Shown here in pieces: positions 5,145 through 55,258 of a stretch of 55,798 nucleotides of DNA (the stretch's first letter is position 1; each line of letters starts with the position of its first letter). Location of the stretch: IMG/VR virus record IMGVR_UViG_3300036861_000985, positions 1 to 55,798 of that record; one strand, 5' to 3'. The notes below the pieces were generated by a model. The model was not told where the DNA came from. It did no database searches and worked only from the letters and a program-made list of their open reading frames with translations. Origin of the DNA: a virus (Duplodnaviria > Caudoviricetes). The position numbers were made by a program, and so were the translations under genes.

Positions 5145-5424
5145 AAGCGCCTGCCTTTCTCCCGCGCTTGGCGGCGAGATCAGCATCGATGCGGAGCATG
5201 CGATACGCCGTGTCGCGCGCCTCCATCATCGCGAACCCGCCGCCGAGCGCAGCGATCTGCTCGTTCGTGGGAAGCTGCTTCGCCCAGAACCGCAGCCAGT
5301 GGGCTACCTCACGCCCATGCTTCCGTGCAGCGCTGATTGCCTGCCGCCGCGTGCGCGGAGAGCGCGCGAGGGTGACCGCACGGTTGAGGGTCCACTGCGT
5401 CTGCTTCTTCTCAGCCACGAGCAT
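5137..5424 (-). CDS. Hypothetical protein
   Basis: ORF track; coupled to neighbours. Confidence 0.5.
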   Translation of the reverse strand: MLVAEKKQTQWTLNRAVTLARSPRTRRQAISAARKHGREVAHWLRFWAKQLPTNEQIAALGGGFAMMEARDTAYRMLRIDADLAAKRGRKAGAYG

Positions 5425-38082: not shown

Positions 38083-38643
38083 CTAGCGCTCCTCGACGCC
38101 GAGAAGGTCCGACTCGTGGAGGATGATGTGGCGCACCTCGCCGATCTGCACCTCCGAGCCGTGGTACTTGCCGACGAACACGATGTCGCCCGTCTTGACC
38201 TGCGGTTCGAGACGGCGGCCGTCGTCGAGCAGCCGGCCCGGCCCCACTGCGACCACCTCGGCGCGCGCCGCGGGGCGGTTGTCCTGCGCCGTGTCGGGGA
38301 TGTGGATGCCACCCGCGCTCACGCGCTCGCGCTCCATCACCTTCACCAGAACACGGTCACCCATCGGGCGCAGCTTGCTCATCTCGTCCATGGTCTCGTT
38401 CTCCTCGTTCTCTTCGTCCAGCGCATCGTCGTCGAAGTCGCCCCATGCACTTCGCAGCGAGTCCAACATCTGACGCAGGAATCTGTCCGAGCCCATCTCC
38501 TTGATGGCTCGCTTCGCGGCCTTGATCCACATCTCGTCCGGCACGAGCTGCTCGAACGGACCGAAGCCAGCATACGTGGGGTCGCAGATCGTCGCCGCTA
38601 CCGACGTCTCCGTCCACTTCTCGCCTTCGAGCCCCGCCGACAT
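38083..38643 (-). CDS. groES: Co-chaperonin GroES with an in-frame 84-aa N-terminal domain (internal start possible at 38391)
   Basis: LRPMGDRVLVK, GGIHIPDTA, EVVAVGPG, VKTGD.V...KY.G.EV, ESDLLG. Confidence 0.9.
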   Translation of the reverse strand: MSAGLEGEKWTETSVAATICDPTYAGFGPFEQLVPDEMWIKAAKRAIKEMGSDRFLRQMLDSLRSAWGDFDDDALDEENEENETMDEMSKLRPMGDRVLVKVMERERVSAGGIHIPDTAQDNRPAARAEVVAVGPGRLLDDGRRLEPQVKTGDIVFVGKYHGSEVQIGEVRHIILHESDLLGVEER

Positions 38644-38649
38644 CGCCGG

Positions 38650-38700
38650 ATAGTGAGACCTGTCGGACAGGTTGTCAACGACCATCCTGCCTGATAGGAT
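38650..38700. promoter_or_regulatory. Divergent promoters, each with an operator: minus TTGACA-17-CACTAT, plus TTGTCA-17-TAGGAT
   Basis: CCTGTCGGACAGG at 38659-38671 and degenerate CCTGCCTGATAGG at 38686-38698. Confidence 0.8.
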
Positions 38701-38710
38701 TCGCGAAACC

Positions 38711-38917
38711 ATGCGCACCCCGGCCGAGAGAAGAAGCGAAACGCTCAGGCGCTTGCGCGGCGCGGTCTACGCGGCCGTCATCGCCGGGGCCACAGACGAC
38801 GAGATCACCCGCGAGATCGAAGACGCTGTGGCCTCCGGCGACGATGACCTTGTCAGAGGAACGTGGGATACGGACTACCCGGGGTCTCGTCGTCGTCGCG
38901 GACTGCGTCGTCGCTAG
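38711..38917 (+). CDS. Hypothetical protein
   Basis: ATG 10 nt after the plus-strand -10. Confidence 0.55.
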   Translation: MRTPAERRSETLRRLRGAVYAAVIAGATDDEITREIEDAVASGDDDLVRGTWDTDYPGSRRRRGLRRR

Positions 38918-41708: not shown

Positions 41709-44165
41709 TCAACTCTCCGCGTCGAACCAGTCGAACGCCGGCTCCACTGCGCCGCCCGGGTTCGCCGCGAGCGCTGACGTGAAGAGCGAGCCGAAGACGG
41801 CCGAGACCGCGTCCTCCTCGCTCATCGCGACGCCGTCGACGACTGCGGCGATCGTCGAGACCTTGTCCTTGAGGAGGTTCGAGATCGCGACGTCGATCGT
41901 GCCGGCGCCGTCCATGTAGGTGATCTGCACCGCGTTCTTCTGCCCGATGCGGTGGATGCGGTCCTCTGCCTGCACGAGGTCTGCCGGGCGCCACGCGCGC
42001 TCGATGAACAGCATTTCCTGCGCGGCCGTCAGCGTGATACCGACGCCAGCCGCGAGGATCGAGCAGACGATGACGTCGAGGTCTCCACCCTGGAACGCGT
42101 CGATGCTCACCTGACGCGTCGGCTGCGGATCGCTGCCGAGGATCGTGCCGACACGCAGGCCGGCCTCGCGCAGCTCGCTGATGATCTCCTGGAGCGCCGA
42201 TGCGTGATGCCCCATGACGACGAGCGGCCGACCGGTGCTCTCCTTGTGCTCCTTGATCCACTCGACGGCCGCCGGTGCCTTACCCTCGGCCGCGAGGCGA
42301 CGCAGCGCCGTCATCTTCACGAGAGCCTCGGCCTTGCGAGCAGCGTTGACCGCCTTCGGACCGCCTTGCTGCCGTACCCACTCGATGAACTCCTCGACGG
42401 CGAAGCGATAGGCCTTCGCGCGCTCTTCTTCGAGAACGACCTCCATGCTCCCGCGCTGCTTCTCCGGCAGGTCTTGCAGCACCTCGGCCTTGAGACGGCG
42501 GAGCATGTACTTCCCGACGATGCGCTCGTGCAGTTCCTGCTCGTTGCTGCTGCCCGAGAAGTCCCAGCCGAAGCGGCCCCTGTAGCCAGCGCAGTAGCGG
42601 AGGCCGAACGAGAAGAACTTGTCCCACGTCTTCGGGTCGATGATGTGCAGGAGCGGCCACAGCTCGTTCGGGCGGTTCAGGATGGGCGTGCCGGTGAGCA
42701 AAAGCCTGCGACGCACATGACGAGCGATCGTCGCGCCGGCTGCGGCGCGCTTCGAGCCCGCGTACACCATCTCGCCGCCACCTTCGGACGTCGGACCGAC
42801 GTCAGCGTCCTTGGCGCCCTTCTTCTTCAGCTTGAGCGTCTTGAGGTAGTGCGCTTCGTCGGCGACGAGCGTCGTCCACTTCCGCGAGAGCAACGTCTCG
42901 ACATGCGCATCGACGATGTCGTAGTTGCAGATGACGACGTCCGCGACGAGCGTGCGAGGATCGATCGGCTTGCGACCCGAGATGATCTGCGACGTCAGCT
43001 CGGGACGCCACCTCGCGATCTCTCTCACCCAGTTCACGCGCAGCGTCGCGGGGCACAACACGAGCACCGGCGGGTCCACCGCGATGATCGACTGCAGGGT
43101 CTTGCCGGTGCCTTGCTCATCGGCCAGCAGCCCAGACCCCACGCTGTCCATCCAGCGCACACCTTCGATCTGATAGTTGAACATCGTCTCGGGGATCTTT
43201 CGATCCACCGGCGGCAACTTCTCCGGTGCCTGCGCTCCCGCGGCGTGCGCGTCATCGCGCTCTGTCTTGTCCGCCTGCGCCTCGATCGCCTTCACCTCGG
43301 ACGCCGGCAACGGACGCACCTCCGCGAGCGAGAGGAACTCGAAACCGCGACGGCCAGGGATCTTCAACCCGACGCGCGGCGCGCTGTCGCTCCCGCCGAC
43401 CCAGCCGACCTCGTACTCCTTGCCGTCCGGACCGATGACCCGGTCGCCCTTCGTGACCTTGACGGGCGCCGGCTTCTCGCCGGTCTGCTCGGTCGGCGGA
43501 CCCGCAGGCGGCGTCACCGGCGGCGCGACGGGCTGGGCCACCATGGGAATCGGGAACGCGCTCCCGTCCGCGTCGAGCGCGATCTCTCCCGGGAAGCCCG
43601 CGACGAGCGCGTTGATCGCCTCTTGCAACCGGTCTTTCGGCACCGACCAATGCGGCGCCGGGTGCTTCGAGAAACGGCGCCCAGGGACGTTCTTGATCGC
43701 CGCGACGAACGCCGCGTTGTAGGGCGTGAAGATGCGCAGGTCGTTGCCGGCCGCCTCGATGCGGACCTGACTCCCCGAGAAGTGCATCTCGGCGATCTTC
43801 CCCGCCGTCGTGTGGTAGCCGGCCGCCTGCGCGATCCCGTGCGCGGCCGTGAGCGCTTCCTTCGAATGCGGACCGCCGAACTCGGCGGCGATGGCGGCGT
43901 GCCAGATCGCGCGCTGGACGGCGCCCTTCGTGTCCCCGGAGCGCAGGTACGGCAGCACGTCCGCCTTCAACTTCTCCGGCGCCGTGTCCACCATCAGCTC
44001 GAGCTTCTCCCGGTCCACGGGACCAGGCGCGCCGACCACACCGTACTTCCCCCGACAGTCCGGTCCGGCGCCAGCCTCGACGCTCACCGCGTCCACGAGC
44101 GGGCGGTCACAGAACACGCACCGCGTCGCCATCTGGCGCGTGTTGATCGCGTCTTCGTAGCTCAT
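41709..44165 (-). CDS. SNF2 helicase with N-terminal DUF6011-like Zn finger and HARP-like domain (SMARCAL1-like)
   Basis: CVFCDRPL.D..S...G.GPDC; PYNAAFVAAIK.VPGRRF...W; ADEQGTGKT, DEAH, LTGTP, LRRLK, GITLT, QAEDRIHRIGQ. Confidence 0.9.
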   Translation of the reverse strand: MSYEDAINTRQMATRCVFCDRPLVDAVSVEAGAGPDCRGKYGVVGAPGPVDREKLELMVDTAPEKLKADVLPYLRSGDTKGAVQRAIWHAAIAAEFGGPHSKEALTAAHGIAQAAGYHTTAGKIAEMHFSGSQVRIEAAGNDLRIFTPYNAAFVAAIKNVPGRRFSKHPAPHWSVPKDRLQEAINALVAGFPGEIALDADGSAFPIPMVAQPVAPPVTPPAGPPTEQTGEKPAPVKVTKGDRVIGPDGKEYEVGWVGGSDSAPRVGLKIPGRRGFEFLSLAEVRPLPASEVKAIEAQADKTERDDAHAAGAQAPEKLPPVDRKIPETMFNYQIEGVRWMDSVGSGLLADEQGTGKTLQSIIAVDPPVLVLCPATLRVNWVREIARWRPELTSQIISGRKPIDPRTLVADVVICNYDIVDAHVETLLSRKWTTLVADEAHYLKTLKLKKKGAKDADVGPTSEGGGEMVYAGSKRAAAGATIARHVRRRLLLTGTPILNRPNELWPLLHIIDPKTWDKFFSFGLRYCAGYRGRFGWDFSGSSNEQELHERIVGKYMLRRLKAEVLQDLPEKQRGSMEVVLEEERAKAYRFAVEEFIEWVRQQGGPKAVNAARKAEALVKMTALRRLAAEGKAPAAVEWIKEHKESTGRPLVVMGHHASALQEIISELREAGLRVGTILGSDPQPTRQVSIDAFQGGDLDVIVCSILAAGVGITLTAAQEMLFIERAWRPADLVQAEDRIHRIGQKNAVQITYMDGAGTIDVAISNLLKDKVSTIAAVVDGVAMSEEDAVSAVFGSLFTSALAANPGGAVEPAFDWFDAES

Positions 44166-44222
44166 GGAACGGCCGCCGGAAGCATGGCCCGAGGCTACCA
44201 CACGGCCCGTGTCACCGTCCAC

Positions 44223-44280
44223 GCTCGACATCCTGTCCGACAGGTTATCAATGGTCAAGCGCTTTCGAACGCGCTAGAGT
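44223..44280. promoter_or_regulatory. Operator-containing divergent promoter region
   Basis: CCTGTCCGACAGG at 44232-44244 next to TTGATA (minus); alternative minus promoter TTGACC-17-CAGGAT; plus-strand TGGTCA-17-TAGAGT before ATG 44289. Confidence 0.7.
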
Positions 44281-44674: not shown

Positions 44675-44790
44675 GTGACCACGCCATCACTTGCGCAAAA
44701 GCACTGAGGTGACGGCTTCTCGGAGCTACGCAGCGACACTGCGCGCCTCCCGCAGGCTGAGCCCCAGCCTGTACACATTCCGCGCCGCAT
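44675..44790 (-). ncRNA. Putative TnpB omega/reRNA scaffold and IS200/IS605 right end
   Basis: GAAGCCGTCAC...GTGATGGCG hairpin ending GGTCAC at 44675, directly after and overlapping the tnpB 3' end; 5' boundary approximate. Confidence 0.6.
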
Positions 44791-45853
44791 TTACGTCGCG
44801 GTCCAGCACCAGCCCGCACCCGGGGCACTCGTGTACCCGAACCGACAGGTCCTTCGGCACGTGTGCCTGACAGTCCGAGCACGTCTGCGAAGTCCCGCGC
44901 GGGTCCACCAGCACTACCTCGCGGCCGGCGCTTTCAGCCTTGCTCACGAGGATGCTGATGAACTGCGTCCAGCCCGCGTCGTGTACCGACTTGGCTAGCG
45001 CTCCCGCTGCGAGACCCTTCACGTTCAAGTCTTCCACCGCGATCCAGTCGTTCTGTTTCACCAGGCGCAGCGCGATCTTCCGATGATCGTCACGACGCTG
45101 CCGCGCCACTTTCAGGTGCAGTTTTGCGAGCACCGCCTTCGTCTTCTTGCGACGGTTGCTGCCGCGCTTCTTCGTTGACAGCTCGCGCTGAAGCTCCGCG
45201 AGCCGCTCCTGCGCATGCCGGCCTCGGCGCTCGTTCTCGATGAGCGTGCCGTCGCTGAGAGCAGCGAACGTCATTAGTCCCAGGTCGATGCCGATGCCGC
45301 GCCCGGTAGCCAGTAGCGGCTTCGCCGCGACGTCGGCGCAGACGAAGTCGGCGTACCAGTGGTCGTCGCCAAGACGGATGATGCGAATCTGTTTGAGCTT
45401 CCCCTCGTGTTCACGGTGGAGCTTGATTTTGACGTTGCCGATACCGTGGACGTAGAGACGCTTGCCGCCGGACACGAGACGGACACCATTGCGATGGGCC
45501 GCGTCCTTGAATGTGAAACTGTGGTACCGGTCGCGAGACTTAAAGCGAGGGTAGCCAGGCTTCTCACCGGATTTACAGCGGCGGAAGAATGACTTGAACG
45601 CGAGGTCCGCGCGCAGAACGACATCTTGGAGCAAATGGAAGTGGACGTCGCCGTAGTCAGGGTCGGCGTCACGGATGGCCTTGAGCTGCGTGTCCTGCAT
45701 CTTCTTGCTGACCGAAATGCTCTGGCGCTTCCATGCGGTGCTGCGCTCTTCGATGCAGGCGTTGTAGAGACCGCGCAGAAGCCAGAGCGTTCTAAAGAGC
45801 GCAAAACTCTGTGAGCGCGACGGGTACAGGCGGTAGCGGTAGACGCGGTTCAC
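44726..45853 (-). mobile_element. tnpB: IS200/IS605-family RNA-guided endonuclease TnpB (no TnpA nearby)
   Basis: YRYRLYP, GYPRFK, RuvC motifs GIDLG / AVEDL / DRDVNAARN, Zn finger CSDC...CPGC. Confidence 0.95.
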
Positions 45854-45958: not shown

Positions 45959-46825
45959 ATGTCCTATATGCACGTCGAAAACCTGTACAGGCCGAGTGCC
46001 CAGGTCATCCTCCTCTTCCGCGAGTGCTACGCGCTCGAGAAGCTGCACGGCACCTCCGCGCACATCGCGTGGCGCGACGGGAAGGTCTGGCTCTCGCCGG
46101 GCGGCGAGTCCGCGGACCGGTTCCGGCGTCTCTTCGACGAGGCGGCTCTCGCGGCGGCGTTCGAGAAGCTCGGTCATCCGAGCGTGATCGTCTACGGCGA
46201 GGCCTACGGCGGCAGCCAGCAGAAGCAGGCATGGCGCTACGGCAAGGAGCTGCGCTTCGCTGCGTTCGAGGTGCAGATCGGCGAGCACTTCGTGAACGTT
46301 CCGGTCGCGGACGAGATCGTGAAGGGCCTCGGCTTGGAGTTCGTGCACTACAAGCGGATCCCGACCGACCTCGCCGCGATCGACGCCGAGCGCGACGCGC
46401 CGTCGGAGCAAGCTCGCCGCAACGGTGTCGAGGGCGACCAGCCGCGCGAGGGCGTCGTGCTGCGTCCGCTCATCGAGCTGCGCGACAACAGCGGTAGCCG
46501 GATCATCTCGAAGCACAAGCGCGACGAGGAGCGCGAGACGAAGACGCCGCGCGAGGTCGTCGACCCGGCGAAGCTCGCCGTGCTCACGAAGGCGACCGAG
46601 ATTGCCGAGGAGTGGGCCACGCCGACTCGGCTCGAGCACATCCTACAGAAGATGCCGCCCGAGACGAGCATCGAGAAGATGCGCGAGGTCATCGCGGCGA
46701 TGACGGAGGACGTCCTTCGCGAGGGCGCGGGCGAGCTGGTGGACAGCCGCGAGGCTCGTGCGGCGATCGGCAAGCGGACCGCGACGCTCTTCAAGGAGCG
46801 GCTGCAGAGCACGCTCAAGGGCTGA
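45959..46825 (+). CDS. RNA ligase (Rnl2-like nucleotidyltransferase)
   Basis: EKLHGTS (motif I), VYGEAYG, FAAFEV, EGVVLRP, ISKHK. Confidence 0.85.
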   Translation: MSYMHVENLYRPSAQVILLFRECYALEKLHGTSAHIAWRDGKVWLSPGGESADRFRRLFDEAALAAAFEKLGHPSVIVYGEAYGGSQQKQAWRYGKELRFAAFEVQIGEHFVNVPVADEIVKGLGLEFVHYKRIPTDLAAIDAERDAPSEQARRNGVEGDQPREGVVLRPLIELRDNSGSRIISKHKRDEERETKTPREVVDPAKLAVLTKATEIAEEWATPTRLEHILQKMPPETSIEKMREVIAAMTEDVLREGAGELVDSREARAAIGKRTATLFKERLQSTLKG

Positions 46826-53346: not shown

Positions 53347-53427
53347 CGTGGCGACGGAGATGGCAGAGAACATGTCCCTTGCGGGAACCGATTACGAGTC
53401 GATGTAGTCTCTACCGCATTCGCCACG
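53347..53427 (-). ncRNA. Y RNA-like hairpin 3, displaying a Thr(CGU) anticodon stem-loop
   Basis: CGUGGCGA/UCGCCACG terminal stem, GGCGAAUG motif, UACAUC, AUCGA-CUCGUAA-UCGGU, UCCC-GCAA-GGGA. Confidence 0.75.
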
Positions 53428-53441
53428 AGCTACCGGAAAGT

Positions 53442-53507
53442 GTGCCGACGGAGGTTGACGCAGACGTTTCTCTTAGCAGGGGATGTAGTCTGCGCCGCAT
53501 TCGGCAC
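53442..53507 (-). ncRNA. Y RNA-like hairpin 2, displaying a Ser(GCU) anticodon loop
   Basis: GUGCCGA/UCGGCAC stem, GCCGAAUG motif, UACAUC, UCCC-CUGCUAA-GAGA. Confidence 0.75.
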
Positions 53508-53514
53508 GGAAAGA

Positions 53515-53537
53515 GCGGACGACAGACACTCGTCCGC
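53515..53537 (-). terminator. Hairpin between Y RNA-like units (weak terminator or processing signal)
   Basis: GCGGACGA/UCGUCCGC 8-bp stem followed by UCUUU. Confidence 0.45.
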
Positions 53538-53545
53538 AGAAAAGT

Positions 53546-53604
53546 GGAACCGACGGGGAGTGGCGAGTGGTGTATCCGATGTACACCCGCCGGTATTCGG
53601 TTCC
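53546..53604 (-). ncRNA. Y RNA-like hairpin 1 (minimal unit)
   Basis: GGAACCGA/UCGGUUCC stem, CCGAAUA variant motif, GGCGGGUG/CACUCGCC inner stem, UACAUC; starts 6 nt after the Ro60 stop. Confidence 0.7.
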
Positions 53605-53610
53605 TGACGT

Positions 53611-55209
53611 TCAGATGTTCGTCGCCTCGATCTCCTTGACCCAGGTGTCCGGGCCCTCGCCGCGCATGAACGCCGCGATCTGGTCGAACATGTGATCACC
53701 GTAGCCGCCCACGTTCAGGACGGCGTTCTTCTGGTCGTAGACCTGCACCGACGTGGTCGGCGCGATGTCGATGCAGACGAGGCGAGCCTTCGGGTTCTTG
53801 CCCCGGATGCGCGCCCACTCGTGTGCCATGTCGGTTCCACGGCGTCCGTCGCCCATGGTCGGCGACTGCATCCAGGACTCGTTGTCCGAGATCATAACGA
53901 TCAAGTCCACCTCGCCCTTGATCACGCGCAGCGGCGCAGCGCAGTCGGTGCCGCCCTGCGGCAGCTCCGCGATCTTCCGTGCATTCGTCATCACCGCGTC
54001 ACGCGGGTTCAGGTCGATCGAGTGCACCCGATCGTTGAACGGGATGACGCGCGCATCCCCGTTCGTGCGCAGGATACAGCTCGCGATGAGCGACGCCACG
54101 TCGAGCACCGACACCTTGGTCGTCGCGGTACCGCGCGAGCCCGTCACCGGGTCGTGCATCGAGCCCGAGACGTCCGGGCAGATCACGACGCGGCCGGGGA
54201 TCGCCGGCACGTTGCCCGTCACGTACTCGAGCGCGTCCTGCAACGCGTTCTTGATCGCGACGTCCACCTCCGCGTTCATGTACGCGACGAGGAGCTGGTA
54301 CGGGAAGACGCGCACCTTCGCAAGCGTCTCCTCGTCGCGGAGGCGCTTCGCCACGTTCTTCACCATCGCGGCGTCCTCGAAGACGCCGTGACGCTTGAAC
54401 GTGTTGAGGTTCATGCGGAGCGTGTGCCAGTTGGCGCGGGAGGCGATCGTCTTCCAGTGCTCGTCCGAGATCTGCGTCCCGGTGAGCATCTGGAACGGCA
54501 GGTCCGGCATCGGCTGCGTGGCGTCCTTCTTCCACGCCTCGAACGCCTTCACGACCTCCGGCAGCTTGCTGAGATCCGCACGCGGACGCGCCGCCGTCGC
54601 CTTCATCTTCTCGACGTCGTGCTCCATCATGTACGCGCGGAGCGCGCGCTCCTCTTCGTCACGAGGAGCCGGGCGCGCCATCCTGATCACGTCCACCATC
54701 GACGGACGAGTGCCGATCGAGTCGCGGAAGATCTTCTCCGGCGTTCGAGCTGCGAACCAGCCGTTGATGAGCTTCTTCACCGCGGTGCCGAAGCTCTTCC
54801 GGCCCGTCGCGCCCGAGCGCACGATCTGCACGAAGTTCCGCAGCATCTTCCCGTTGTCGATGACGACCGGGAAGACCGCCTTGAGCAGACGGAGCGACTC
54901 CGGGTCCTTGCGCGACGCGAGCACCGCGCAGAGGAACGCCGGCATGTCCTTCATCTGGCCCTTGTCACGCGCGAAGCACGCGAGCTGCGCGATGAAGCGC
55001 GAGTCCACCTTCGACGCGAGGTCGAGCACGGCCGCGAGCTGCTGGTCCGCCGACGTGTAGTACTTGTCGGTGAAGACGCCGGTCATCGCGTACTGCCCGA
55101 GGCTGTGCTTCGCCCCCGGATCGTATGCGTGTCCGCCTGCCTCGTTGGTCGTATCCGTCACCCGCGGCGTCTTGCCGCGCGTGCTCGTGAAGAGCTGCGT
55201 ATTCGCCAT
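53611..55209 (-). CDS. rsr: Ro60/Rsr TROVE-domain RNA-binding protein with vWA domain
   Basis: NEAGG.AY, L.QYA.TG, MKDMPA, DNGKMLRNFVQI.RSG..GRKS.G, LRMNLNTF.RHG, FPYQL, DVSGSM, GGTDC, SDNESW. Confidence 0.95.
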   Translation of the reverse strand: MANTQLFTSTRGKTPRVTDTTNEAGGHAYDPGAKHSLGQYAMTGVFTDKYYTSADQQLAAVLDLASKVDSRFIAQLACFARDKGQMKDMPAFLCAVLASRKDPESLRLLKAVFPVVIDNGKMLRNFVQIVRSGATGRKSFGTAVKKLINGWFAARTPEKIFRDSIGTRPSMVDVIRMARPAPRDEEERALRAYMMEHDVEKMKATAARPRADLSKLPEVVKAFEAWKKDATQPMPDLPFQMLTGTQISDEHWKTIASRANWHTLRMNLNTFKRHGVFEDAAMVKNVAKRLRDEETLAKVRVFPYQLLVAYMNAEVDVAIKNALQDALEYVTGNVPAIPGRVVICPDVSGSMHDPVTGSRGTATTKVSVLDVASLIASCILRTNGDARVIPFNDRVHSIDLNPRDAVMTNARKIAELPQGGTDCAAPLRVIKGEVDLIVMISDNESWMQSPTMGDGRRGTDMAHEWARIRGKNPKARLVCIDIAPTTSVQVYDQKNAVLNVGGYGDHMFDQIAAFMRGEGPDTWVKEIEATNI

Positions 55210-55229
55210 GATGAAATCCCCAGGTCGCG

Positions 55230-55258
55230 AAGTTAGACGCTGTCCGACAGGTTGTCAA
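55230..55258 (-). promoter_or_regulatory. Operator-containing promoter (TTGACA-17-TAACTT) for Ro60
   Basis: Spacer ACCTGTCGGACAGCGTC. Confidence 0.85.

What the first reader, a model, noticed from the sequence alone, without database searches (positions are those of the whole stretch)
53347..55258. Ro60 followed by an array of three Y RNA-like hairpins, two presenting tRNA anticodon loops (candidate anticodon-decoy system)
Seen: three homologous minus-strand units start 6 nt after the Ro60 stop (53604-53546, 53507-53442, 53427-53347). They share the layout stem1-CGAAUR-C-stem2-UACAUC-variable-stem2'-pyrimidine tract-CCGUCG-stem1'. The stem sequences differ between units but stay paired. The variable part of unit 3 is a 5-bp stem with the 7-nt loop CU-CGU-AA (Thr anticodon) plus a GCAA-capped arm. 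Unit 2 has UCCC-CU-GCU-AA-G, matching the tRNA-Ser(GCU) anticodon arm as I recall it, with an imperfect stem. Both loops follow the Y32-U33-anticodon-R37-A38 rule. Known: bacterial Y RNAs lie next to rsr and carry a GNCGAAN(0-1)G motif; the described YrlA tRNA mimicry involves the D, T and acceptor arms, which are absent here. Inference: a modular scaffold with swappable anticodon loops held by Ro60 could decoy or sense host anticodon nucleases during infection.
Basis: partly seen in the sequence, partly recalled or inferred. Interest (0 to 1): 0.9.

Follow-up and report, generated by a model that had tools for sequence, protein, structure and literature searches.

The report
Phage Y RNAs showing anticodon-like loops
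A soil phage fragment carries a Ro60 gene followed by three small Y RNA genes, two of which display a hairpin shaped like a tRNA anticodon arm; the same hairpin recurs in many other Ro60 loci and may point to what these RNAs bind.

Summary
A Ro60 gene (53611-55209, minus strand) is followed after 6 nt by three homologous Y RNA-like units at the stated coordinates. A fourth unit is reduced to an 8-bp stub; about 92%-identical relatives carry 112-128 extra letters at that spot.

Such arrays are ordinary. A covariance model seeded on these units found 665 units in 243 searched sources, all on the Ro60 strand. They comprise short units and about 130-nt tRNA-like (YrlA-type) units.

A 7-nt loop CU-NNN-AA, closed by a covarying 3-4 bp stem, sits at a fixed offset after the conserved UACAU motif:
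- It occurs in 59 of 286 units (12.5 expected).
- It occurs in 23 of 142 units of an independent bacterial set (5.7 expected).
- At least 24 different triplets are seen.

In tRNA-like units the hairpin lies exactly where an anticodon arm plus 5-nt variable loop would precede the T arm. Published work calls it a "less-conserved V" stem-loop, and Rfam's YrlA model treats it as an insertion.

No function was shown. A decoy or tether for anticodon-loop-binding proteins is plausible but untested. Verdict: a real feature and a new variant of a known kind.

The parts
53611..55209 (-). Ro60 (TROVE/vWA) gene, 532 aa
   Evidence: Pfam vWA_Ro60 E=1.4e-13; TROVE 22.1 bits, just under its 23-bit cut-off. 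PHROG 850 'RNA-binding protein' 5.1e-39. 44% identity over full length to the Myxococcus phage Mx1 TROVE protein. 7998 of 8000 scored homologues had E<=1e-30.
55230..55258 (-). Possible promoter seen by eye (TTGACA, 17 nt, TAACTT) about 20 nt upstream of the Ro60 start
   Evidence: Read only. The consensus scan did not call it (0 promoter-like sites), so it is weak.
53546..53604 (-). Y RNA-like unit 1: short, simple apical loop, no anticodon-like hairpin. Its 5' motif is ACCGAAUA instead of GNCGAAUG.
   Evidence: Fold -23.6 kcal/mol, z -2.68. R2 56.4 bits. Homologous in place and in the AUAC variant to L084 unit A.
53515..53537 (-). Stub hairpin (8 bp, 7-nt loop): remnant of a fourth unit's basal stem
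   Evidence: Fold. In contigs of runs X3 and X10, 112 letters replace 53524-53529. In X7, 128 letters replace 53524-53542 (table 5). L084, the 59% relative, has a 128-nt tRNA-like unit at the same place whose stem starts with nearly the same letters.
53442..53507 (-). Y RNA-like unit 2: loop CUGCUAA (53479-53473) on an imperfect stem (C.A mismatch)
   Evidence: Fold -24.3, z -3.25. Rfam YrlA 21.9 bits, E 0.03, below the 69-bit gathering score, with the tRNA-like part missing. R2 51.3 bits. In the X3 relative the stem changes at three places to a perfect UUC/GAA while the loop is unchanged (tables 3-4).
53347..53427 (-). Y RNA-like unit 3: anticodon-arm-like hairpin (53403-53387, loop CUCGUAA) plus a GCAA-capped hairpin (53386-53375)
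   Evidence: Fold -31.1, z -3.03. R2 51.6 bits. Same two-hairpin design as L160, L119, L106, L157, L086, L148, L017:4268 and L109:3186. No difference listed in the X3 relative, while the flanking ORF differs at 10 of about 124 places.

Best explanation
The locus is a phage Ro60 operon. The Ro60 gene is followed by an array of Y RNA genes of the YrlA/YrlB family: three intact short units and one unit deleted down to a stub.

Inferred from the family: the RNAs are co-transcribed with Ro60, cut out, and bound by the Ro60 ring through the conserved basal helix (GNCGAAUG on the 5' side, CCGUCG on the 3' side).

Shown here: the apical module of units 2 and 3 is a small hairpin that copies the loop of a tRNA anticodon arm (C32 U33 NNN A37 A38). 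This module is under selection and recurs, with many different triplets, in roughly one fifth of the units next to related Ro60 genes in phages and bacteria. In the tRNA-like units it occupies the exact place of an anticodon arm.

Most likely mechanism (inferred, not shown): Ro60 holds these RNAs as stable anticodon-arm look-alikes that bind proteins recognising anticodon loops. In a phage, these would most plausibly be host anticodon nucleases or other tRNA-directed enzymes, which would be titrated, tethered to Ro60, or reported on.
For: Identity of the protein.

Family of the RNAs:
- R1, built on 5 short units, found 76 matches.
- R2 found 153, 228 and 284 matches in 84, 79 and 80 sources. 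All lie on the Ro60 strand.
- Basal stems are 95.3% paired against 59.1% in shuffles, with covariation 0.92 against 0.23 (that alignment is fitted to the model).
- Weak Rfam YrlA match that skips the tRNA part.

Loop motif:
- Of 51 seven-nt hairpin loops in minimum-energy folds of 150 short units, 14 fit YU-NNN-RA and 31 fit YU-NNN-R.
- CU...AA loops on stems of 4 or more pairs number 31, against a mean of 1.9 (maximum 6) in 200 shuffles.
- Chosen by loop and position alone, there are 59 of 286 units (12.5 expected). Flanking pairs 1-4 are paired in 81, 85, 76 and 56% of cases, against 37-40% background.
- Tool count: 66.6% paired against 38.1% in shuffles, 0 of 500 shuffles as high; slid controls 26-41%.
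- Replication in 142 new units from named bacterial genomes: 23 (5.7 expected), pairs 83, 100 and 78%.
- The 54 strict cases lie in 49 loci, form 36 clusters at 80% identity, and show 24 triplets.

Geometry in tRNA-like units: the distance from UAC to the T stem peaks at 24 = 5+7+5+5. The 5 nt before the T stem are NGGUY in 80 of 179 units. ARAGORN reads the hairpin as the anticodon arm in 4 units.

Selection in the window: the X3 relative keeps units 1 and 3 unchanged and repairs unit 2's stem, while Ro60 differs at 139 of 1771 places.

Context:
- An Rnl2-type RNA ligase lies 7 kb away.
- Related loci sit inside tRNA gene arrays.
- RtcB follows the arrays in 65 of the 242 loci searched besides the query's own locus L003.
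- Hughes 2020 links the rsr-yrlBA-rtcBA operon to anticodon-loop cleavage.
- A phage Ro60-like protein counters a defence system in the PhageMaP preprint.
Against: - No expression, processing, Ro60 binding or partner protein was shown for any of these RNAs.
- The stems are short. Pair 5 is at background (36%, 26%), so most hairpins have 3-4 pairs rather than a tRNA's 5.
- Only about 13% (strict, 54 of 428) to 19% of units carry the motif, so it is not needed for Y RNA function in general.
- Unit 1 lacks it, unit 2's stem is imperfect, and L084's homologue of unit 2 has no such loop.
- The units are homologous, so counts are not independent events. The shuffles do not preserve relatedness.
- Conserved C32, U33, A37 and A38 could reflect a stable U-turn fold or tRNA ancestry rather than protein mimicry.
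- R2 found nothing near Ro60 in phages Mx1, ET08, Myrna and phiLo. The enterobacterial YrlB/YrlA units in L003 lack the loop.
- Triplets matched a tRNA gene of the same locus in only 6 of 19 cases by my hand count, which is about chance.
Confidence: 0.55

Rival explanations
1. Ordinary Y RNAs whose anticodon-like hairpin is a structural leftover. The family arose from tRNA, as in the dimeric-tRNA model quoted in the Wang 2018 preprint, and kept the first tRNA's anticodon arm as a stable U-turn hairpin. On this view the RNAs act only as Ro60 gates or tethers to PNPase, and the triplet has no meaning.
For: - The hairpin sits exactly where the first tRNA's anticodon arm would lie before the variable loop and T arm. 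This fits the model quoted.
- Most units (about 80%) do without it.
- Positions 34-36 look unconstrained, with 24 triplets.
- Phage phiLo Ro60 with its Yrl RNAs binds host PNPase.
Against: - A useless relic should not keep C32, U33, A37 and A38 and a covarying stem across 36 clusters at 80% identity and three collections.
- Short units have lost every other tRNA part yet keep this one.
- The stem is repaired by compensating changes in a 92% relative.
Confidence: 0.3
2. RNA-RNA contact module. The U-turn loop presents three to five bases for fast kissing with a complementary loop or single strand. The target could be a tRNA, a tRNA fragment or an mRNA site, which would be guided to the Ro60 ring or an attached nuclease.
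For: - The 7-nt loop begins with a pyrimidine followed by U and has a variable middle.
- Triplets differ between two units of one array in all 10 arrays that had two.
- From recall: U-turn loops speed antisense pairing in bacteria.
Against: - Three variable bases give very little specificity.
- The invariant A37 and A38 are typical of tRNA rather than of antisense loops (recalled).
- No complementary partner was looked for or found.
Confidence: 0.08
3. Not RNA genes at all: intergenic palindromes, terminators or repeat elements that follow the Ro60 gene by chance.
For: One terminator-like site was called at 53388-53374, which is the GCAA hairpin. No RNA evidence exists.
Against: - That single call is at chance level (1 found, 1.1 expected).
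- 665 model matches all lie on the Ro60 strand.
- Both stems covary strongly.
- Rfam YrlA resemblance.
- Units 1 and 3 are unchanged in a relative whose coding flanks differ by 7-8%.
Confidence: 0.02

Closest known systems
Short second Y RNAs of bacteria (S. Typhimurium YrlB, M. smegmatis YrlB, D. radiodurans Yrn2; Chen et al. 2014, PMC4201824, passages read)
   Same: Encoded beside Ro60 on the same strand in an array. Long stem formed by the two ends, with the CGAA motif. No full tRNA-like domain. The enterobacterial YrlB in L003 even shares the UACAUC block.
   Different: [quoted passage not shown] The L003 YrlB has a 6-nt loop without CU...AA. Window units 2 and 3 carry an anticodon-like 7-nt loop.
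YrlA, the tRNA-like Y RNA (Rfam RF02553; Chen 2014; Wang et al. 2018 preprint 10.1101/312249, passages read)
   Same: Same basal scaffold. Relatives of the window and L084 have such a unit inside the same array. The hairpin studied here lies where Chen 2014 drew the 'V' stem-loop.
   Different: The window's units lack T, D and acceptor-like arms and score 21.9 bits against a 69-bit gathering score. The literature calls V 'less-conserved' and states that YrlA lacks an anticodon loop. Rfam's model has no V hairpin.
D. radiodurans Yrn1 'anticodon arm' (Chen 2014, passage)
   Same: A Y RNA drawn with a 5-bp stem-loop likened to an anticodon arm.
   Different: Its loop has 6 nt and a different arm order. 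No loop consensus or triplet variety was reported there. I did not examine the Yrn1 sequence.
Thermus phage phiLo Ro60 with Yrl1/Yrl2 (NAR 2025, PMC12135203, passages read), and the Bas63 Ro60-like gp130 that counters the ppl defence (PhageMaP preprint PMC11482910, passage read)
   Same: Phage-encoded Ro60 with nearby Y RNA-like genes. A counter-defence role was proposed or shown for the protein.
   Different: The phiLo RNAs lie upstream of Ro60 and are not matched by my model. No anticodon-like loop is mentioned in the passages read.
Anticodon-arm mimics that bind proteins, such as the thrS mRNA operator and viral tRNA-like structures (recalled; search listing only)
   Same: A hairpin with an anticodon-like 7-nt loop outside a tRNA, used as a protein-binding site.
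   Different: Those are parts of mRNAs or viral genomes with one fixed anticodon. Here the hairpin rides on a Ro60-binding scaffold and comes with many triplets.

Membership tests
Ro60-associated bacterial/phage Y RNA (YrlA/YrlB type) | Encoded within about 2 kb of a Ro60 gene | tested here: met
   Units start 6 nt after the Ro60 stop, on the same strand. The feature is as stated in Chen 2014.
Ro60-associated bacterial/phage Y RNA (YrlA/YrlB type) | GNCGAAN0-1G motif on the 5' strand | tested here: met
   Unit 2 has GCCGAAUG and unit 3 has GGCGAAUG. Unit 1 fits only in part (ACCGAAUA). The motif is taken from the Chen 2014 passage.
Ro60-associated bacterial/phage Y RNA (YrlA/YrlB type) | Stem formed by the 5' and 3' ends, an internal loop, and a second stem, all kept by covariation | tested here: met
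   Folds. The family alignment has 95.3% of cells paired, and all 16 pairs show changes on both sides (alignment fitted to the model).
Ro60-associated bacterial/phage Y RNA (YrlA/YrlB type) | Made as a stable small RNA that binds Ro60 | not testable with these tools
   Needs RNA sequencing and Ro60 pull-down.
Rfam YrlA (RF02553) | Score at or above the gathering score of 69 bits | tested here: not met
   No match in the window at gathering threshold. The best is unit 2 at 21.9 bits.
Rfam YrlA (RF02553) | tRNA-like domain with T and D arms | tested here: not met
   The 61 model positions of that domain are replaced by 14 nt in unit 2. No unit under 90 nt has a T-loop motif.
tRNA | Cloverleaf found by ARAGORN or the Rfam tRNA model | tested here: not met
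   0 tRNA genes in the window. No Rfam match.
tRNA anticodon arm (resemblance only) | 5-bp stem with a 7-nt loop: pyrimidine 32, U33, purine 37 | tested here: inconclusive
   Unit 3 has 5 pairs (one U.G) and the loop CUCGUAA, identical to the loop of the tRNA-Thr(CGU) gene in L088. Unit 2 has the right loop but a mismatched stem. Family-wide, the stem is 3-4 pairs.

The most novel reading that the evidence does not exclude
Y RNAs of this widespread family carry a programmable anticodon-arm mimic. The scaffold and loop positions 32, 33, 37 and 38 are fixed, and the triplet is free. Ro60 would hold sets of these mimics as decoys, traps or cleavage-sensing baits for anticodon nucleases. Phages would use them, with RNA ligases and their own tRNA arrays, against tRNA-cutting defences. 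Bacteria would use them in rsr-Y RNA-rtcB repair operons. The published 'V arm' of YrlA would then be a true anticodon-arm equivalent, and the Ro60-binding stem an insertion between the D and anticodon arms.
Probability: 0.25. Interest if true: 0.9.

Novelty: new variant of a known kind. Interest (0 to 1): 0.7.

Why it matters
What the effector modules of bacterial and phage Y RNAs bind is an open question. [quoted passage not shown]

A conserved anticodon-loop look-alike with a free triplet narrows the search to proteins that read anticodon loops: nucleases, modification enzymes and synthetases. It also gives a clean mutational handle, because the four conserved loop bases can be changed separately from the triplet.

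It fits current work on tRNA-cutting phage defences and on phage tRNAs that evade them (listing). It also suggests redrawing the YrlA cloverleaf.

For annotation, it explains why tRNA finders sometimes call 'tRNA-Ser' or 'tRNA-SeC' inside Y RNA genes.

Tried and rejected
- A locus search with the single Ro60 protein found no relative. The alignment-based searches worked.
The model was then rebuilt from its own matches.
- R2 found no match near Ro60 in Mx1, ET08, Myrna or phiLo, so the model covers one Y RNA subfamily only.
- Expression: no RNA holder was listed for the stretch. Run X7 is labelled RNA-Seq but flagged as probably DNA, and only contigs were laid, so nothing is said about transcripts.
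- The promoter scan called nothing. The one terminator-like call is at chance level.
- I asked whether hairpin triplets match tRNA genes of the same locus. My hand count gave 6 of 19, against roughly one in five expected, so I dropped the idea.
- A link between G36 and G37 (7 of 14, against 7 of 70 for other bases at 36) is suggestive. Alternative registers could produce it, so it is not used as evidence.
- ARAGORN calls only 6 of 428 units as tRNA, which is weak support only.
- Coverage: only the best 150 matches of each search were available as sequences. That is 450 of 665 matches, or 428 distinct, so 215 weaker matches were not examined.
- Papers: the two Wolin-lab reviews (PMC10870794, PMC6047535) are not held.
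- Searches behind the claim that the loop motif is not described: plus passages.
- The 112-128 letters inserted in the relatives could not be read, so their tRNA-like nature is inferred from size, place and L084.
Full report
**What the window is.** The window is a 55,798-base virus record judged 33% complete, with about 65% G+C and no tRNA gene. The ORF at 53611-55209 on the minus strand encodes a 532-aa Ro60 protein:
- Pfam vWA_Ro60 at 1.4e-13, and TROVE just under its cut-off.
- PHROG 850.
- 44% identity over its full length to the TROVE protein of Myxococcus phage Mx1.
- A very large family of homologues, with a 91% and a 60% relative in metagenomes.

**The observation.**
- They align with invariant CGAAU.C, UACAUC and CCGUCG blocks and differing stems.
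- Each folds into stem1, internal loop, stem2 and an apical module, with z-scores of -2.7 to -3.3.
- Unit 3 has the loop CUCGUAA on a stem of up to 5 pairs, plus a GCAA-capped hairpin.
- Unit 2 has the loop CUGCUAA on a stem with a C.A mismatch.
- Unit 1 has only a simple loop.

**What kind of RNA.**
- Rfam gives no match at gathering threshold.
- In a permissive search, unit 2 aligns end to end with YrlA at 21.9 bits (gathering score 69), with the 61-position tRNA-like core replaced by 14 nt.
- The enterobacterial rsr fragment L003 shows Ro60, a short YrlB with the same UACAUC block, two tRNA-like units, and then rtcB.
- The closest relative with DNA in hand is L084 (59% Ro60 identity). It has a short unit, a 128-nt tRNA-like unit and another short unit directly after Ro60.

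**Family search.**
- A covariance model of the five short units found 76 matches.
- Rebuilt from those matches, it found 153 matches in 84 sources, 228 in 79 metagenome loci and 284 in 80 bacterial genome loci.
- Every match is on the Ro60 strand, and there are up to about ten per locus.
- In the window, only the three units match.
- Both basal stems covary strongly.
- Unit lengths are bimodal: about 60-80 nt without a T-loop, and about 130 nt with one.

An array of Y RNA genes after Ro60 is therefore the normal state of such loci. It is already in print for several species (Chen 2014).

**The lost unit.** Contigs from four other runs were laid on the stretch. Three of them (X3, X7, X10) hold relatives about 92% identical across it.
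- In X3 and X10, 112 letters replace window positions 53524-53529. In X7, 128 letters replace 53524-53542. Both lie at the loop of the stub hairpin.
- With the stub's 8-bp stem, this gives about 130 nt, the modal size of tRNA-like units.
- L084 has such a unit at the same place, with a nearly identical stem start.
- I infer that the window's phage has lost the body of a YrlA-type unit. I could not read the inserted letters.

In the same X3 contig no difference is listed in units 1 and 3. Ro60 differs at 139 of 1771 places, and the next ORF at 10 of about 124. Unit 2 differs by four substitutions and one deletion. Three of these changes turn the mismatched stem UCCC/GAGA into a perfect UUC/GAA, while the loop CUGCUAA stays the same. 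Caveats: this is one contig, 14 of its 15 substitutions in that piece are listed, and the table was cut.

I analysed the 450 best matches (428 distinct sequences) out of 665.
1. In minimum-energy folds of 150 short or medium units, 51 of 214 hairpin loops have 7 nt. Of these, 14 fit YU-NNN-RA (all begin CU) and 31 fit YU-NNN-R.
2. Loops of the form CU...AA on stems of at least 4 pairs number 31, against a mean of 1.9 (maximum 6) in 200 shuffles.
3. Among all 256 patterns that fix loop positions 1, 2, 6 and 7, this one ranks third, behind only two T-loop patterns.
4. Choosing sites only by the loop motif and its place (4-12 nt after the conserved UAC) gives 59 of 286 units, where composition predicts 12.5. 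The flanks pair in 81, 85, 76 and 56% of cases for pairs 1-4 and 36% for pair 5, against 37-40% background.
5. The pair-counting tool on these 59 windows gives 66.6% paired against 38.1% in shuffles (0 of 500 as high), covariation 0.650 against 0.180, and slid controls of 26-41%.
6. In the independent bacterial genome set (142 units not seen before), the motif occurs 23 times against 5.7 expected, with pairs 1-3 at 83, 100 and 78%.
7. The 54 strict cases (at least 3 contiguous pairs) lie in 49 loci, form 36 clusters at 80% identity, and carry 24 triplets. GUU, UGA, GUA, UGU and UUU are the most common.
8. With a looser loop pattern (YU-NNN-R-N), 58 of 104 loci have at least one such unit. All 10 arrays with two have different triplets.

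Window unit 3 belongs to a recognisable two-hairpin subclass, and unit 2 to a one-hairpin subclass. Unit 3's loop is identical to the anticodon loop of a real tRNA-Thr(CGU) gene in L088.

**Where the hairpin sits.** In 179 units with a T arm:
- The distance from UAC to the T stem peaks at 24 nt, which is 5+7+5+5.
- The 5 nt before the T stem are NGGUY in 80 cases.
- The stem reads CAUNN/NNACG, with a conserved A.C mismatch.

This is the layout of an anticodon arm followed by a five-base variable loop and the T arm. That this matches a class I tRNA is my recollection of tRNA numbering. ARAGORN reads the hairpin as an anticodon arm in four units, and this produces spurious tRNA-Ser and tRNA-SeC calls inside Y RNA genes.

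**What is in print about this hairpin.**
- The Wang 2018 preprint says YrlA "lacks the anticodon loop".
- Rfam's model treats the hairpin as an insertion.
- The Salmonella-type units in L003 lack the loop, which may be why it went unremarked.
- I found no description of the CU-NNN-AA loop in the searches. However, two reviews and all supplements could not be read.

**Function.** Nothing here shows what the RNAs do. The following points favour a tRNA-conflict role:
- An Rnl2-type RNA ligase lies 7 kb from Ro60 in the window.
- Ro60/Y RNA arrays are embedded in tRNA gene arrays in many related loci, with up to 28 tRNA genes in L078.
- RtcB lies downstream of the arrays in 65 of the 242 loci searched besides the query's own locus L003, nearly all non-viral.
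- The Salmonella operon is switched on by anticodon-loop cleavage, and its authors suggest that YrlA may competitively inhibit the nuclease.
- A phage Ro60-like protein counters a defence system.

These points argue for caution:
- The stems are short.
- Four fifths of the units lack the motif.
- The counts are inflated by homology.
- A plain structural or ancestral explanation remains possible.

I put the Ro60/Y RNA identity above 0.9, the reality of the conserved anticodon-like module at about 0.85, and a role in binding anticodon-loop-reading proteins (decoy, tether or bait) at roughly 0.3-0.4.

**Verdict.** The feature is real and was correctly described. The array itself is a known kind. 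The anticodon-arm look-alike appears to be an unreported, widespread variant module, and it turns a vague question into specific experiments.

Noticed in passing
window 53515-53537 (-): Stub hairpin between units 1 and 2. Relatives about 92% identical carry 112-128 more letters inside it, so the window seems to have lost a roughly 130-nt (probably tRNA-like) Y RNA unit.
   Followed up: partly
window 45959-46825 (+): 288-aa RNA ligase (Pfam PF09414 at 5.5e-10; PHROG 548 at 1.8e-21), 7 kb from Ro60. It is a possible RNA-repair partner. No RtcB was found in the window.
   Followed up: partly
window 44726-45853 (-): IS605 OrfB/TnpB-type transposase (OrfB_IS605, Cas12f1-like TNB and HTH domains; PHROG 506 at 1e-99) inside the phage fragment.
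   Followed up: no
window 41709-44258 (-) and 38083-38718 (-): An SNF2-family helicase with an N-terminal DUF6011, and a 211-aa protein whose C-terminal half is a GroES/Cpn10 domain.
   Followed up: no
L078, L063, L157, L096, L082, L088, L115, L139, L148, L037: Ro60 and its Y RNA array lie inside or beside large same-strand tRNA gene arrays, with 8 to 28 tRNA genes within the fetched 4.6-6.7 kb. The contigs look phage-like.
   Followed up: partly
L053:6348-6415, L115:2022-2087, L122:460-589, L005:1933-2074: ARAGORN calls tRNA-Ser(gct), tRNA-SeC(tca) or tRNA-Ile(gat) inside Y RNA units, using the anticodon-like hairpin. These are likely annotation artefacts in phage genomes.
   Followed up: yes
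L002 about 5170-5275 (Myxococcus phage Mx1): A stretch before tRNA-Gly with GGAAUGC, UACAGC and a closing stem looks by eye like a divergent Y RNA. My model does not match it. A peptidyl-tRNA hydrolase gene follows.
   Followed up: partly
L003 (OR845705.1): The record is labelled 'UNVERIFIED_ORG Escherichia phage'. It is a 1.7-kb piece with the 3' end of rsr, one short and two tRNA-like Y RNA units, and the start of rtcB. That is the layout of the Salmonella rsr-yrlBA-rtcBA operon, but with two YrlA-like units.
   Followed up: no
L240 4950-5860 (Undibacterium sp. Di27W): A cultured isolate whose rsr-Y RNA-rtcB locus has a unit with the loop CUUUUAA and two with UU-start loops. It is a possible experimental system.
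   Followed up: partly
units with a T arm in A7/A8/A10: A subgroup of about 103-nt units (for example L091:4378-4480 and L110:2159-2261) has the T loop UUCGAAU closed by GCGGA/UUCCG and AACCA before the T stem. This is a layout distinct from the main YrlA type.
   Followed up: no
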